Source of the DNA: the human T2T-CHM13v2.0 reference genome, Homo sapiens
Direction: 5' to 3' (one strand)
Assembly (NCBI RefSeq): GCF_009914755.1
Contig: NC_060925.1
DNA length: 64,000 bases
Part shown: one piece after another, positions 35,349 to 46,442 of the stretch
Numbering within the stretch: the first letter of the stretch is position 1
How the letters are laid out: every line of letters starts with the position of its first letter
The notes under the pieces: model-generated
What the model was told of the DNA's origin: nothing
Database searches by the model: none
Seen by the model: the letters and a program-made list of their open reading frames with translations, nothing else
Made by a program: the position numbers and the translations under genes

Positions 35349-36970
35349 CTGATAAGTCACTGTCATGCTAACATTTTTTGTAATGAGCTACTTTGACAAT
35401 ACTTCCATAATTTTCTCAAATGATACAGATTTTGCCTCATCTCTCTCGCTGTCACACACAAAACTTTTGGCCATAATGGGGAACCTTATGATTCTCCCTT
35501 ATAATTGCAAAACACTAGAAACTCTCATTTATTTCACCTCTTCTCTTGCAGACAAGGGAACACCCCAGACATGGTATCAGAGATCCACATGACAGGCCCA
35601 ATGTGCCTCATTGAGAACACTAATGGGCGACTGATGGCGAATCCAGAAGCTCTGAAGATCCTTTCTGCCATTACGCAGCCTGTGGTGGTGGTGGCGACTG
35701 TGGGCCGCTAGCGCACAGGAAAATCCTACCTGATTAACAAGCTGGCTCAGAAGAAAAAGGGTGAGTGGCATGAGCAAAGCTCTGCCAAGTCCCTTCTGTC
35801 CATCTACACAGTCAGCCTCCATCACGAGGATGTGAAGAGAGAAAGAGATGAGGATGAATATGGAAAGCTAACTTTCCATTCACAGTCGGGCTCCTTATCT
35901 TCACGCTGCTCTAAGGGATAATTTTAAATTCATTAATTATTCCCATGATACATTAGTTTCCCTTTCAAAAGCACAAACTGTGCCTTTCCTAAAAGGAGTA
36001 AGACTGTAATAAAAATAATTAATGTACATAATAATAACTATAATAAACTACAATTTTTATGCCATAACAGCGAGTTTACAGTGATCTTTAAGGTTGAAAA
36101 AATGTTTGTCTGTATTGGATATTCTTTTTTATTGTTGTAAAAAAATAACATAAAATTTAACCTCGTAACCATTTTTAAGTGTACAGCTCTGTGGCATTAA
36201 TTAAATTCACATTGTTATACAGCTGTCACCTCCATCCATATCCAGAAATCTTTCATCTTGCCTAACAGAAACTCTGTACTAACTAAACAAAAGCTCCACA
36301 TAAACCCATTGCCTGCCATCATTCTACATTCTATCTCTATGAATTTTACTACTACAGAAACCTCATATAAGTGGAATTATTCAATATTTGTCCTTTTATG
36401 ACTGGCTTATTTCAATTCATATGTCTTCAAGGTTCATCAGTGTGTTAGCATGTGTCAAAACTCTTCCTTTTTAAGGCTTAGTAATTGTACATGTATACTA
36501 ATTTGTTTATCTCTTCATCTGTCAATGGACAATTGGATTGCTTCCACCTTTTGTCTATTATAAATAATGCTAATAGGAACATGGGTGTCTGAATATCTGT
36601 TCAAGTCCCTGCTTTCACTTCTTTTGGGAATATACCCAGAAGGGTAATTGCTGGCTCATGCAGTCATTCCATGTTAACTTTTTTTTTTTTTAAGAAATCA
36701 CTATACTATTTTCCACAGTGACTGTACTGTTTTACATTCCCAACAGAAATGCACAAGGGCTCTAATTTCTCTACCTCCTCACCAACATTTTTTATTTTCA
36801 GTGTTTTTTTTGATAGTGGCCATATGAATGGATGTTAAGTAGTATCTCACTATGGTTTTGATTTTCATTTTCCTAATGACTGGTGATACTGGGCATCTTT
36901 TCATGTGCTTATTGGCCACCTGTATATCTTCTTTGGGAAAATGTCTATTCAAGTCCTTTCTTCATTTATT

Positions 36971-37760
36971 TTTTTTTTTTTAAATTCAGAAAAATTTTCT
37001 TCCACTTGAAAATGTTAAAACTCTTCATTAAACAACTATTAGATCAAGTAGAAAATACAAATCAAAATAGGTGAACATATAAACATCAAAATAGTGATAT
37101 ATATATCAGAATCTATGGAATATAATGAAAATAATTATCAAAAACAATTTGTAGTCTTTAAATCATATATCAATAGAATTATAAATTAAAATACATAAAT
37201 CTAATGTGAAACACAGAAAGCTAGAAAAAAGATCAAGAAAATAAAGCAAAAGGAAACATAACAGACGTAAAGAGATAAGAGCAGAACTTCAGTTAGTTCT
37301 GATTGTAAGCTATGTTATAAATTAATCAACATGCTAGTTCTTTGAATAGAACATAAACAAAATATGCAAACCAACATCCAACCTAATCAAGAAAAACAGG
37401 GAGAAAACAAAGTTACACAGAATAATACACGAAACAAGAGGAAATCATACTAAAACTAAGGACATTTTTAAACTGTTGAGTTAAATCATTTTACACAGCT
37501 CTAAGCAGGTAGATATAAAAGCCTACATAAAATGGGTAATCCCATAGGGAAATTATTAACAGTGATACCAATGGAGACAGAAAGTTTAAGAAAATGAGAA
37601 AGTTATTAAATTACTACTCCCACCCAAAAGTACAAGACACAGATGACTTTATAATGGAATTTTATGAATTTTTCAAATATTAGATAATACCAATGCTACA
37701 TAGACTGTTCTTAAAAAGAGATTGCCAAGCTATGGCCAGTGGGACAAATATGGCCTGCCG
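36971..37760 (-). other. L1 3'-transduced segment with its own poly(A) (T tract to 36981)
   Basis: Lies inside the TSD of the downstream L1; contains + strand ancient L1 ORF2 sequence and the start of a MER58-like element. Confidence 0.8.
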
Positions 37761-37761
37761 G

Positions 37762-43700: not shown

Positions 43701-43863
43701 CGCACGGTGCGCGCACCCACTGACCTGTGCCCACTGTCTGGCACTCCCTAGTGAGATGAACCCGTTACCTCAGATGGAAATGCAGAAATCACCCGTCTTC
43801 TGCGTCGCTCAGGCTGGGAGCTGTAGACCCCAGCTGTTCCTATTCGGCCATCTTGGCTCCTCC
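37762..43863 (-). mobile_element. Full-length L1PA2-like element; ORF1 and ORF2 frameshifted; CpG-rich 5' UTR with YY1 site (43847-43855)
   Basis: 5' end GGAGGAGCCAAGATGGCCGAATAGG; ORF1 and ORF2 pieces (463 aa, 279 aa and others); lacks the 129-bp ZNF93 segment; non-Ta 3' UTR. Confidence 0.92.
43415..43520 (+). other. L1 ORF0 5' part (MVGAPPPASLPPCSLISDCCASNQRDSVGVGPSAP) up to splice donor SD1 (CCAG|GTGCGG)
   Basis: Matches recalled ORF0; strong Kozak context gcaATGG; a frameshift (T7) occurs only after SD1. Confidence 0.8.
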
Positions 43864-46442
43864 TCCTTTATTCATTTATTAATCTGGTTGTTTATCTGTG
43901 TTGCTTTGTAAATTTTTTTTATATTTTCTAGATATAAATCCCTTATCATATACATGTTTAACAAATATTTTCTTACATTCTGTGTGTTGCTTTTTTTTAA
44001 CTCTGTTGATAGTGTCTGTTAATACACAAAAGTTTTAAATGTTGATGAAGTCAACTAATCTATTTTTTCTTTTATTGTCTATACTTTTGGTTTCTTATTA
44101 AAAAAAATCATTGCCAAATCCAATATTATATAACTTTTACCCTTTGTTTTCTTCTACAAATTTTATAGTTTTAACTCTAATGTTTGGTTCTTTGATCCAT
44201 TTTGAGTTCATATTTGTAAGTTATAAGGTAAGAGCCCAACTTTTTTTAAGGAGATATCTCATTTCCTCAACATCATTTGTTAAAGAGACTCTTCTTTCTT
44301 AATTAAATGATCTTGACACCCATCCTGGAAATCACTGACCATATATGTCAGAGTATATTCATGGGCTGTCTTTTCTATTCCATTGGTTTATATGTCAGTC
44401 TTTATACCAGTACCACACATGGTTTTGTAATAAGTTTCAGAACTCAGAAACTGTAAGACTCCAACTTTGCTCTTCCTCTCTTCCTTTTTAAGATTATTTT
44501 CATAATTAGGGGATCTCTGGAAATTTCATATGAAAGTTATGGTAGATTTTTCTATTTATACAAAGTAATTGGAATGTTGGTAGAATTACCTCAAACCTGT
44601 ACATCACTTTGGGTAGTAGTGACATCTTAAGAATATTAAGTCTTCCAATTCATAAACGCAGGATGTTTTTCTAATGATTTATGTCATCTACAATTTCTTT
44701 AAAGGGTGTTTGAAGTTTTCACTCGACAACTCTTGCGCCTGCTTGGTTAAGCTTATTCCTAAGTGATTTATTCTTTTGATGCTGTTAAATGGGATTGTTT
44801 TCAAAATTTCCTTTTCTTTTTGTTTAGGAAGGAAATTAGAATTCCTGTTCTAATTCTATTTTTATACACTAGCAACTGATTTCTCCATATTGGCTTTGCA
44901 TCCTGCAACTTTGATGAATTCTTTTAATAGTTCTAATAGTTTTTTGTGGAATATTTAATGTTTTCCACAAATTAGATACTACCGTCGGCAGACAGAGATA
45001 ATTTTACTTTTTCATTACCAATTAGGATGCCTCCTTTATGCTTTTCTTGTCTAATTACTCTGGATAGGACTTGCAGTGTTCTGTGGAATGCAATTGGCAA
45101 AAGTAGGCATCCTTTTCTTGTTCCTGATGTTATAGGAAAAGCTATGACACTTCATCATTAAATGTGAAGTGAGCTGTGGGTTTTCAATATATGGCCTTTA
45201 TTATGTTGAGGTATTGTCTTTCTATTTCTACTTTGTTGATTATTTTTATCATGAAAGCCTCCTGAATTTTTCCATGCATTGGATATTCAAATTTCCTATT
45301 TCTTTGATTGTAAGTAAGTAAGGTGAATACTGATTGTTGTTTCAGTTCTCTCTCTTAACCTTAAAATACGCTACCTTTTCCTTCAGTTGCTAGAACTGCC
45401 TGTTACTAAATCCCCATCTCTGGTCTCCTCTCTCCCTTGCAGGCTTCTCTCTGGGCTCCACAGTGCAGTCTCACACTAAAGGAATCTGGATGTGGTGTAT
45501 GCCCCATCCCAAGAAGCCAGGCCACATCCTAGTTCTGCTGGACACCAAGGGTCTGGGAGATGTAGAGAAGGTGAGACTCAAGGATCCAATTGTGGAGTGA
45601 GCCCCTCTTCTCTGAATATTTTATGCACTGTTTAATTGTTTATTAACCATTAACTACAGGCTGTAATATGTGTGGGTTAACACAGATGCATAAAGGGAGC
45701 ACAAATAATCCCAGTGTCATGAGTCTTATCCTGCACAGAACTTTAGTTAAGAATTTGGGTGCTAAAGCCCCGTGACTTTGTATTTAAATTTAAATTCTGT
45801 CACTAATTCAGTAGCCTGAGAAAATTGACCTATTTTAGCCTCAGCATTCTAAGCTTTAAAATGTATGGAAAAGACCTATGTTGGCCACATAGTATAATTT
45901 TGAATATTTAATAAGAAAATATGTGTCAGGTGTATATTAATTATTCGATAAAACAGCAACTAATAGTACCAATCTTATATGTGAATTCTGTTATTGAAAA
46001 AAGAAGAGAAAATTTTAAATTTACATTGTACTCAGGCCTTAAAATGCCCACCAACCTTGAATTTTAATTTTACAATTATCTGTTGATGATCATTAGAAGA
46101 CCTAGTAAGGATCATTGTAACCCAAAACATTCATCGAAAAACTACCCAAAAGCCACATCCTACTGAGAATACTTTTTGTATTTGGCTTCTTTGATAGGTC
46201 ATTAGTGCTAAAGAACAAACAAACAAAAAACCAAAAACCCTCTAACATATGAACATAGTTTTACTACTCTTACTCTGGAAAGTGCTGTGACTACGAAACG
46301 TGCTCCTGACTCCAGTGTGTCTTGACTTCCAGGGTGACAACCAGAATGACTCCTGGATCTTCGCCCTGGCCGTCCTCCTGAACAGCACTTCCATGTACAA
46401 TAGCATGGGAACCATTAACCAGCAGGCCATGGACCAACTGCA

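What the first reader, a model, noticed from the sequence alone, without database searches (positions are those of the whole stretch)
36954..43880. The full-length L1PA2 carries a ~0.8-kb 3' transduction, possibly serial
Seen: no TSD flanks the L1's own tail. Instead tcctttcttcatttatt (36954-36970) matches tcctttattcatttatt (43864-43880), 17 bp with 1 mismatch, and the interrupted old L1M resumes exactly there. On the minus strand the insert reads: L1, A-rich tail, 13-nt spacer (tatacattgattt), second A-rich tail, ~780 bp unrelated DNA (MER58-like end plus oppositely oriented ancient L1 ORF2), variant signal AAGAAA, poly(A), TSD. The target reads TT/AATA. Inference: read-through from a source L1 that sat in a MER58. 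The tag should identify that parent locus, and the double tail suggests two rounds of mobilisation.
Basis: partly seen in the sequence, partly recalled or inferred. Interest (0 to 1): 0.75.

Follow-up and report, generated by a model that had tools for sequence, protein, structure and literature searches.

The report
L1 with 790-base 3' transduction
A dead full-length L1 retrotransposon in an intron of GBP1P1 carried about 790 bases of chromosome 3 DNA along when it inserted; this is an ordinary, well-understood event, and its parent site and one sibling copy can now be named.

Summary
Window 36971-43863 (6,893 bp) is a single minus-strand retrotransposition insert flanked by a 17-bp target-site duplication (16/17).

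- **One insert.** An uninterrupted paralogous L1M elsewhere in the GBP cluster has those 17 bases once.
- **Anatomy in L1 sense.** L1 body (43863-37844), A-rich tail 1 (37 nt), 13-nt spacer, A-rich tail 2 (22 nt), 790-nt non-L1 tag (37771-36982), A11, TSD.
- **Origin of the tag.** It matches one place in this assembly, chr3:123,850,610-123,851,390 (10 substitutions in 786, one 5-nt indel). There it is continuous with an old interspersed repeat.
- **Source.** No young L1 lies at that site. Homology stops at a perfect TTTT/AA endonuclease site, so this is the empty site of a source L1 absent from this assembly.
- **Sibling.** A U6/L1PA2 chimera on chr10 has the same tails, the same spacer and the first ~120 nt of the same tag, ending at the same junction base.

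The L1-tag junction therefore existed in the source RNA, and a 3' transduction is established.

The "serial" idea stays open. The spacer was already in the source, as a 13-nt mini-transduction would be, but no grandparent locus can be identified. Ape orthologues could not be checked. This is a clean instance of a known mechanism and of modest interest.

The parts
36300..36970 (+). Left half of the interrupted old L1M-type element (the target DNA)
   Evidence: It aligns to uninterrupted L1M copies. It is 94% identical to the GBP-cluster paralogue L040 and ends at L040 position 1501.
36954..36970 (.). Target-site duplication, 3' copy (L1 sense AATAAATGAAGAAAGGA)
   Evidence: It matches 43864-43880 at 16/17. 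The 17 nt occur once in paralogues L040 and L048.
36971..36981 (-). Terminal poly(A), 11 A, added to the read-through transcript
   Evidence: Homology to chr3 stops here: chr3 continues ...CTGAATTTTAAATTATCG.
36982..37771 (-). 790-nt 3'-transduced tag copied from chr3:123.85 Mb
   Evidence: It is 98% identical to C3:123850610-123851382. There are 10 substitutions in 786 aligned bases plus one 5-nt indel, K2P 1.28%. The first 30 nt occur only at chr1, chr3 and chr10 at <=2 mismatches.
36996..37001 (-). AAGAAA, the only candidate poly(A)-signal hexamer just upstream of the cleavage site
   Evidence: Hexamer scan. No AATAAA or ATTAAA lies anywhere in the tag. That AAGAAA is a weak signal variant is recalled knowledge.
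37103..37447 (+). Ancient L1 ORF2 fragment inside the tag, opposite in orientation to the young L1
   Evidence: blastn against the window's own L1 in sense: positions 2835-3186, 59% identity, E 1.8e-12. There are weak hits to other old copies at 71-76%.
37701..37771 (-). End of an old multi-copy interspersed repeat (MER58-like by recall) in which the source L1 sat
   Evidence: The chr3 query spanning the junction finds the 3 family loci and 37 other hits at 76-90% among the 40 scored. Three of those hits span the junction point. The chr1 and chr10 matches both stop at query base 72.
37772..37793 (-). A-rich tail 2 (AAAAAATAAAATAAAATAAAAT), the poly(A) with which the source L1 inserted at chr3
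   Evidence: It is also present in the chr10 copy.
37794..37806 (-). 13-nt spacer TATACATTGATTT of unknown origin
   Evidence: It is identical in the chr10 copy. No L1 in the assembly has a 3' flank starting with it.
37807..37843 (-). A-rich tail 1, (TAAA)n/(TAAAA)n type, 37 nt
   Evidence: The chr10 copy has a similar tail.
37844..43863 (-).
   Evidence: Its 5' end coincides with that of another full-length L1. The longest ATG ORFs on its strand are 461, 270, 199, 165 and 119 aa, so both ORFs are broken. The chr10 sibling is annotated L1PA2 in PMC13174262, supplementary file 2, sheet U6.
43864..43880 (.). Target-site duplication, 5' copy (L1 sense AATAAATGAATAAAGGA)
43864..44600 (+). Right half of the interrupted old L1M-type element
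   Evidence: It aligns to L040 1517-797 at 91% identity, overlapping the left half by 17 nt.

Best explanation
Window 36971-43863 is one L1 retrotransposition event made from a read-through transcript, that is, a 3' transduction.

1. A source L1 once sat, in minus orientation, at chr3:~123,851,390 of this assembly, inside an old interspersed repeat. It already carried tail 1, the 13-nt spacer and tail 2.
2. Transcription ran past the L1's own poly(A) signals through 790 nt of chr3 flank. That flank has no AATAAA or ATTAAA.
3. The transcript was cleaved and polyadenylated about 14 nt after an AAGAAA.
4. The RNA was inserted by target-primed reverse transcription at a TATT/AA nick in an old L1M in an intron of GBP1P1, producing a 17-bp TSD.

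The source allele at chr3 is absent from this assembly. It was presumably never fixed and was lost. A second product of the same lineage is the chr10 U6/L1PA2 chimera, whose transcript ended at an earlier site ~120 nt into the same flank.

Shown here: the structure, the TSD, the unique chr3 origin, the empty site with its endonuclease motif, and the shared junction in chr10. Inferred: the former presence of the L1 at chr3, the use of AAGAAA as the signal, and the timing.
For: - **One insert.** The 17-bp TSD is present once in the uninterrupted paralogue.
- **Unique origin.** The tag matches chr3 at 98% over 778 of 779 nt, and no other locus is above 76% apart from chr10.
- **Direction chr3 to chr1.** On chr3 the segment is continuous with its surroundings. 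On chr1 it is bounded by tail 2 and A11.
- **Junction at an endonuclease site.** Homology begins at AAAATAATAAC, and the chr3 bottom strand reads TTATTATTTT/AAATAAAG.
- **Independent copy of the same junction.** chr10 has the same L1 3' end, tails, spacer and first ~120 nt of tag, then its own poly(A). It stops at the same junction base as chr1.
- **The chr10 copy is a bona fide retrotransposition product.** Rfam U6 scores 118 bits, and a 12/12 direct repeat AAAGAACACAAC abuts both ends.
- **Age.** The tag shows K2P 1.28% against chr3, and the L1 bodies of chr1 and chr10 differ at 29 of 1,179 positions. By recall, 1.28% is about the human-chimpanzee divergence level, which fits an L1PA2-age event.
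- **Published parallels.** Two poly(A) tails and sources absent from the reference are described as usual features of transductions in PMC13009371 (passages read).
Against: - No L1 is present at the chr3 site in this assembly, so the source is inferred and not seen.
- Within 10 kb either side, the only L1 piece above 72% identity is a 947-nt 5'-truncated fragment. It is 91.9% identical and lies 2.9 kb away, so it is too old and too short to be the source.
- The only hexamer near the tag's end is the weak variant AAGAAA.
- Absence of the insert from outgroup primates was not tested, because no ape genomes were available. The paralogous GBP-cluster site is only a stand-in for an orthologous empty site.
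Confidence: 0.94

Rival explanations
1. Serial transduction. The source at chr3 was itself the offspring of a grandparent L1 at a third locus. That grandparent's transcript ran 13 nt (TATACATTGATTT) into its flank before polyadenylation. The lineage would then be X to chr3 (lost) to chr1 and chr10.
For: - There are three A-rich tracts separating two non-L1 segments.
- Tail 1, spacer and tail 2 are shared by chr1 and chr10, so they were in the source RNA.
- The spacer is too far from (TAAAA)n to come from point mutation of a tail. This rests on reading the sequence.
- Very short transductions are common: 71% (248/349) were under 100 bp in PMC13009371 (passage read).
Against: - No L1 in the assembly has a 3' flank beginning with the spacer. 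Gap patterns gave 0 hits and 4 hits, of which 2 are the family itself and 2 are unrelated flanks.
- The 16-mer AAATATACATTGATTT has 27 genome hits against 14 for the reversed control, so 13 nt cannot be mapped.
- The one hit next to an L1 tail (chr5) abuts an old 5'-truncated L1 only 88% identical to this one.
Confidence: 0.4
2. The spacer is not a transduction. It is a small insertion or template-switch product inside the source's poly(A) tail, possibly an inverted snippet of the L1 itself.
For: Eleven of the 13 nt (TACATTGATTT) equal the reverse complement of the element's own ORF2 at 39674-39684. Shuffled spacers reach this in 2,997 of 200,000 trials, p about 0.015.
Against: The p value is weak and this was one of several things tried. 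No known mechanism regularly places an 11-nt inverted L1 piece in the middle of a tail. No copy of the spacer lies within 1.5 kb of the chr3 site.
Confidence: 0.15
3. Two independent events at chr1. In this reading the tag with its poly(A) arrived first, as an orphan transduction or retrocopy, and the L1 later inserted next to it.
For: The low-complexity A/T sequence at the L1 tail could hide a short TSD.
Against: The identical L1-tails-spacer-tag junction exists at chr10, an unrelated locus. The tag starts at an endonuclease site on chr3. The 17-bp TSD encloses L1 plus tag together.
Confidence: 0.01
4. The chr10 U6/L1 chimera is a daughter of the chr1 copy, read through into its own tag, rather than a sister made from the chr3 source.
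For: chr1 and chr10 share C where chr3 has T at one of the ~116 shared tag positions. The chr1 copy was full length when it inserted.
Against: chr1 has a private C (CCGG) where chr3 and chr10 both have A. The shared C is equally explained by a later change on chr3. With the source missing, the two models are equally parsimonious.
Confidence: 0.3

Closest known systems
L1 3' transduction (read-through retrotransposition). Moran 1999 and Goodier 2000 are recalled. Pickeral 2000 and Szak 2003 were seen only in a reference list. Szak 2003 is not held.
   Same: L1, its own tail, unique downstream DNA of the source locus, a new poly(A), and a TSD around the whole. The tag maps to one other locus.
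   Different: Nothing in kind. Particular to this case: the source site is empty in this assembly, an extra 13-nt spacer lies between two tails upstream of the tag, and the terminating signal is only AAGAAA.
Transduction families whose source is absent from the reference ('proxy elements', PMC13009371, passages read)
   Same: Reference copies (chr1, chr10) carry a tag from a source L1 that the assembly lacks.
   Different: Those are young L1HS sources that are polymorphic in living humans. This lineage is L1PA2-age, with the tag 1.28% diverged, so the source is more likely extinct than polymorphic.
U6/L1 chimeric retrocopies (Doucet 2015, PMC4476161; Law 2026, PMC13174262)
   Same: The chr10 sibling has a full-length U6 in sense fused to a 5'-truncated L1, with poly(A) and a TSD. 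It is listed as hg38 chr10:21321961-21322067 (U6) plus 21322070-21323242 (L1PA2) in supplementary file 2 of PMC13174262.
   Different: In the passages found, neither paper links a U6/L1 chimera to a source through a 3' tag. In PMC4476161 'transduction' occurs only in the reference list. In PMC13174262 the text hits concern 5' transduction. Neither paper was read in full.

Membership tests
L1 3' transduction | L1 3' end and A-rich tail followed by non-L1 DNA and a second poly(A) | tested here: met
   tails at 37843-37772, tag at 37771-36982, A11 at 36981-36971.
L1 3' transduction | The TSD encloses L1 plus tag, not the L1 alone | tested here: met
   The 17-bp TSD matches 16/17 and is present once in paralogues L040 and L048.
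L1 3' transduction | The tag maps to a single other locus, where it is continuous with its surroundings | tested here: met
   chr3 matches at 98% over 778 nt. The alignment is collinear with no poly(A) bounds on chr3.
L1 3' transduction | A source L1 lies directly upstream of the tag at the parent locus, in the same orientation | tested here: not met
   No L1 lies at the junction in this assembly. The site is empty, with a TTTT/AA motif. The only L1 piece above 72% identity within 10 kb is a 947-nt fragment at 91.9% identity. The former presence of a source is inferred from the chr10 copy sharing the same junction.
L1 3' transduction | A poly(A) signal lies 10-30 nt upstream of the tag's end | tested here: inconclusive
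   Only AAGAAA is present, at 37001-36996, 14 nt before the A run. No AATAAA or ATTAAA occurs in the tag.
L1 3' transduction | An endonuclease-type target (TTTT/AA-like) at the new insertion | tested here: met
   The + strand reads ...CATTTATT/AATCTGG.
L1 3' transduction | The orthologous site in outgroup species lacks the whole insert | not testable with these tools
   No ape genomes are available. The only substitute is a within-genome paralogue (L040) that lacks it.
Serial (two-step) transduction | Two tags separated by A tracts, each mapping to a different source locus | tested here: inconclusive
   Two non-L1 segments and three A tracts are present. The second tag maps to chr3. The 13-nt segment cannot be mapped.
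L1PA2 subfamily | Subfamily-diagnostic positions | not tested
   No repeat library was on hand. The sibling is annotated L1PA2 in PMC13174262 supplementary file 2. The element's length of 6,020 nt and the tag divergence are compatible by recall.
U6/L1 chimera (chr10 sibling) | Full-length U6 in sense at the 5' end of a truncated L1, within one TSD-flanked insert | tested here: met
   Rfam RF00026 scores 118.4 bits over model positions 1-105 at L003 140-246. The L1 follows from ~L003 248. A 12/12 direct repeat abuts both ends.

The most novel reading that the evidence does not exclude
The locus records a three-generation L1PA2 lineage whose middle member, a source L1 at chr3:123.85 Mb, is absent from this assembly and is known only from the tags in its descendants.

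- An unknown grandparent passed on 13 nt of its flank.
- The chr3 source then gave at least two offspring present in this assembly, using two different downstream cleavage sites.
- One of these offspring is a U6/L1 chimera. That would be an example of a U6/L1 chimera assignable to a specific source element through a 3' tag.
Probability: 0.4. Interest if true: 0.35.

Novelty: new member of a known kind. Interest (0 to 1): 0.25.

Why it matters
The finding matters mainly as annotation.

- About 790 bp that look unique in a GBP1P1 intron are a retro-copied piece of chr3. Reads or probes from there can cross-map between chr1, chr3 and chr10.
- It defines a small transduction family (chr3 empty site, chr1, chr10). 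This shows that an L1PA2-age source absent from this assembly nevertheless left at least two copies in it.
- It ties a catalogued U6/L1 chimera to that source.
- It offers a concrete test for ape T2T assemblies: whether the chr3 allele is filled in any of them.

No new mechanism is involved.

Tried and rejected
1. **chr5:153.3 Mb as grandparent.** The 16-mer containing the spacer abuts an L1 tail there. That L1 is an old ~1-kb 5'-truncated copy 88% identical to this element. A second, twin-primed L1 (90% identical) has inserted into its 3' end. Rejected as the source and treated as chance.
2. **L1 3' end to spacer patterns.** Gap patterns joining the L1 3' end to the spacer, with gaps of 1-30 and 31-60 nt, gave 0 and 4 hits. 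Only chr1 and chr10 are relevant.
3. **More siblings.** A search with the first 30 nt of the tag at <=2 mismatches found only chr1, chr3 and chr10.
4. **A young L1 near the chr3 site.** None was found within 10 kb either side.
5. **The spacer near the chr3 site.** No copy at <=2 mismatches was found within 1.5 kb either side.
7. **Szak et al. 2003.** This catalogue of transduction families, which might list this family, is not held. I therefore cannot say whether the family is already in print. Searches showed no paper naming it.
8. **Sister versus daughter for chr10.** One shared and one private substitution in ~116 nt do not decide it.
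Full report
**Observation.** Reading the region on both strands shows a minus-strand L1 whose 5' end (GGAGGAGCCAAGATGG...) lies at 43863. That position coincides with the 5' end of another full-length L1.

In L1 sense the parts follow in this order:

| Part | Window coordinates | Size |
|---|---|---|
| L1 body | 43863-37844 | 6,020 nt |
| A-rich tail 1 | 37843-37807 | 37 nt |
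| Spacer TATACATTGATTT | 37806-37794 | 13 nt |
| A-rich tail 2 | 37793-37772 | 22 nt |
| Non-L1 DNA (the tag) | 37771-36982 | 790 nt |
| Poly(A) | 36981-36971 | 11 nt |

These add up to the 6,893 bp between the two copies of a 17-nt direct repeat, 36954-36970 and 43864-43880, which match 16/17. A match of >=16/17 at one fixed register has a chance of about 1.4e-8 at local composition.

**One insert in an old L1M.** A genome search with the left flank (40 of 6,163 candidates scored) found a 90%-identical paralogue 350 kb away in the GBP cluster, chr1:88,905,208-88,905,482 (locus L040).
- The left flank (w36300-36970) ends at L040 position 1501 and the right flank (w43864-44600) starts at 1517. 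The 17 nt are present once in the uninterrupted copy and are followed by AATCTGG.
- Of the 11 L1M copies examined, 6 align to both flanks collinearly, and 2 of these (L040, L048) reach the junction with the same 17-nt overlap. One has only a distant right-flank hit and 4 have none.
- The nicked strand reads TATT/AATC, a normal L1 endonuclease target.

**Origin of the tag.** A search of the window's own assembly with 36982-37760 gave 7 matches:
- the window itself;
- chr3:123,850,610-123,851,382 at 98% over query bases 1-778;
- chr10:21,342,033-21,342,148 at 99% over query bases 663-778;
- four weak old-repeat hits at 71-76%.

Against chr3 the tag shows 10 substitutions in 786 aligned positions plus one 5-nt indel, K2P 1.28%. 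On chr3 the segment has no poly(A) bounds and runs on into its surroundings on both sides, so the copying went from chr3 to chr1.

The end of the tag nearest the L1 lies in an old dispersed repeat. A 186-nt chr3 query across the junction found, among the 40 hits scored, the 3 family loci and 37 others at 76-90% identity. Three of the latter span the junction point. The chr1 and chr10 matches both stop at query base 72. I recall this repeat as MER58-like, but no repeat library was available to test the name.

The middle of the tag is an ancient L1 ORF2 fragment in the opposite orientation.

**The source site is empty.** At the point where homology to the offspring ends, chr3 reads (L1 sense) ...CTTTATTT|AAAATAATAACAGGCAGG.... 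The bottom strand is therefore TTATTATTTT/AAATAAAG, a perfect TTTT/AA site. No L1 is there. Within 10 kb on either side, the only L1 piece above 72% identity to this element is a 947-nt, 5'-truncated fragment. It is 91.9% identical, lies 2.9 kb away, and is too old and too short to be the source. I infer that the source L1 was an allele that never became fixed, or is missing from this assembly.

**The chr10 sibling settles the mechanism.** Locus L003 carries, in order:
- a full-length U6 snRNA (Rfam RF00026, 118.4 bits, L003 140-246);
- about 1.18 kb of L1 3' end fused to it, differing from the window's L1 at 29 of 1,179 positions;
- a similar tail 1, the identical 13-nt spacer and a similar tail 2;
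- the first ~120 nt of the same chr3 tag, its own poly(A), and a 12/12 direct repeat AAAGAACACAAC abutting both ends.

The first 30 nt of the tag occur, at <=2 mismatches, only at chr1, chr3 and chr10 (reversed control 0). Two unrelated insertion sites thus share the same L1-tail-spacer-tail-tag junction. This can only mean that the junction existed in the template RNA.

The rival of two independent insertions at chr1 is therefore excluded. So is a DNA-level duplication, because the tag is bounded by A tracts.

The chr10 chimera is already catalogued as hg38 chr10:21321961-21322067 (U6) plus 21322070-21323242 (L1PA2) in supplementary file 2, sheet U6, of PMC13174262. This also supplies the only outside support for the L1PA2 label. 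In the passages found in that paper and in PMC4476161, no link to a 3' tag is made. Neither paper was read in full.

**Termination.** The tag's sense strand has no AATAAA or ATTAAA.
- The chr10 transcript ended just after CATAAA/TATAAA, which correspond to window 37666 and 37653.
- The chr1 transcript ended 14 nt after AAGAAA (37001-36996).

That these hexamers act as weak poly(A) signals is established knowledge that I recall. It was not tested here.

**Age and state.** A tag divergence of 1.28% from chr3 is, by recall, about the human-chimpanzee level, which suggests an insertion roughly 6-8 Myr ago. This fits L1PA2. The element is coding-dead: the longest ATG ORFs on its strand are 461, 270, 199, 165 and 119 aa.

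**Serial or not.** A single transduction normally shows two A tracts (PMC13009371, passage read). Here there are three, with a 13-nt non-A segment between the first two. Both offspring share that segment, so it was in the source RNA. This is what a 13-nt mini-transduction from a grandparent would leave, and most transductions in that study were under 100 bp (248/349).

The grandparent, however, cannot be found:
- The 16-mer containing the spacer has 27 genome hits against 14 for the reversed control.
- Only the two family members show it after a young L1 end.
- The one other hit beside an L1 tail (chr5) abuts an old truncated L1 88% identical to this one.

An oddity is that 11 of the 13 nt equal the reverse complement of the element's own ORF2 at 39674-39684. 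Shuffled spacers reach this in 2,997 of 200,000 trials, p about 0.015. That is weak and was one of several comparisons made. I put the serial reading at about 0.4.

**Not done.** The ape orthologue test was not possible, because no ape genomes are held. Szak et al. 2003, which catalogued transduction families, is not held. I therefore cannot say whether this family is already listed in print. Searches turned up no paper naming it.

**Verdict.** This is a textbook 3' transduction with a missing source and a U6/L1 sibling. It is useful for annotation and lineage tracing and is not surprising mechanistically.

Noticed in passing
L003 (chr10:21,340,533-21,343,648), insert about L003 140-1628: This is a U6 snRNA/L1PA2 chimeric retrocopy. 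It carries the same double tail, the same 13-nt spacer and ~120 nt of the same chr3 tag. It is catalogued in PMC13174262 supplementary file 2, but without mention of the tag in the passages read.
   Followed up: yes
L003 116-137 versus 1633-1654: Besides the 12/12 repeat that abuts the chr10 insert, a 22-nt repeat (20/22) overlaps it. The chr10 target seems to have held a near-tandem duplication, or the TSD is longer and untidy.
   Followed up: partly
L040 (chr1:88,903,708-88,906,982): This is a paralogous copy of the GBP1P1 intron L1M elsewhere in the GBP cluster, 91-94% identical over 1.4 kb. It lacks the whole insert and so serves as a within-genome 'empty site'.
   Followed up: yes
window 42984-43564: The RefSeq 'enhancer' feature lies wholly inside the L1 5' UTR, at about L1 positions 300-880.
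   Followed up: no
L035 5860-8010 (chr5:153.306-153.308 Mb): A twin-primed (5'-inverted) ~1.1-kb L1 has inserted into the very 3' end of an older truncated L1, with the TSD AAAGTATAATAAATT. The older L1's A8 tail is followed by the same 13 nt as the spacer, apparently by chance.
   Followed up: yes
window 39674-39684 (+ strand): An 11-nt exact match (TACATTGATTT) links the spacer to the antisense strand of the element's own ORF2. The empirical p is about 0.015.
   Followed up: partly
L061 2982-3928 (chr3:123,854,281-123,855,227): A 947-nt 5'-truncated L1 3' fragment lies 2.9 kb upstream of the tag on chr3. It has the same orientation as the inferred source and is 91.9% identical to the window's L1. 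It is older and is not the source.
   Followed up: partly
L020 and L021 (chr5:20.75 Mb and chr5:34.24 Mb): Two chr5 loci share near-identical sequence for at least 180 nt around the 16-mer hit, in opposite orientation. This is probably a segmental duplication.
   Followed up: no
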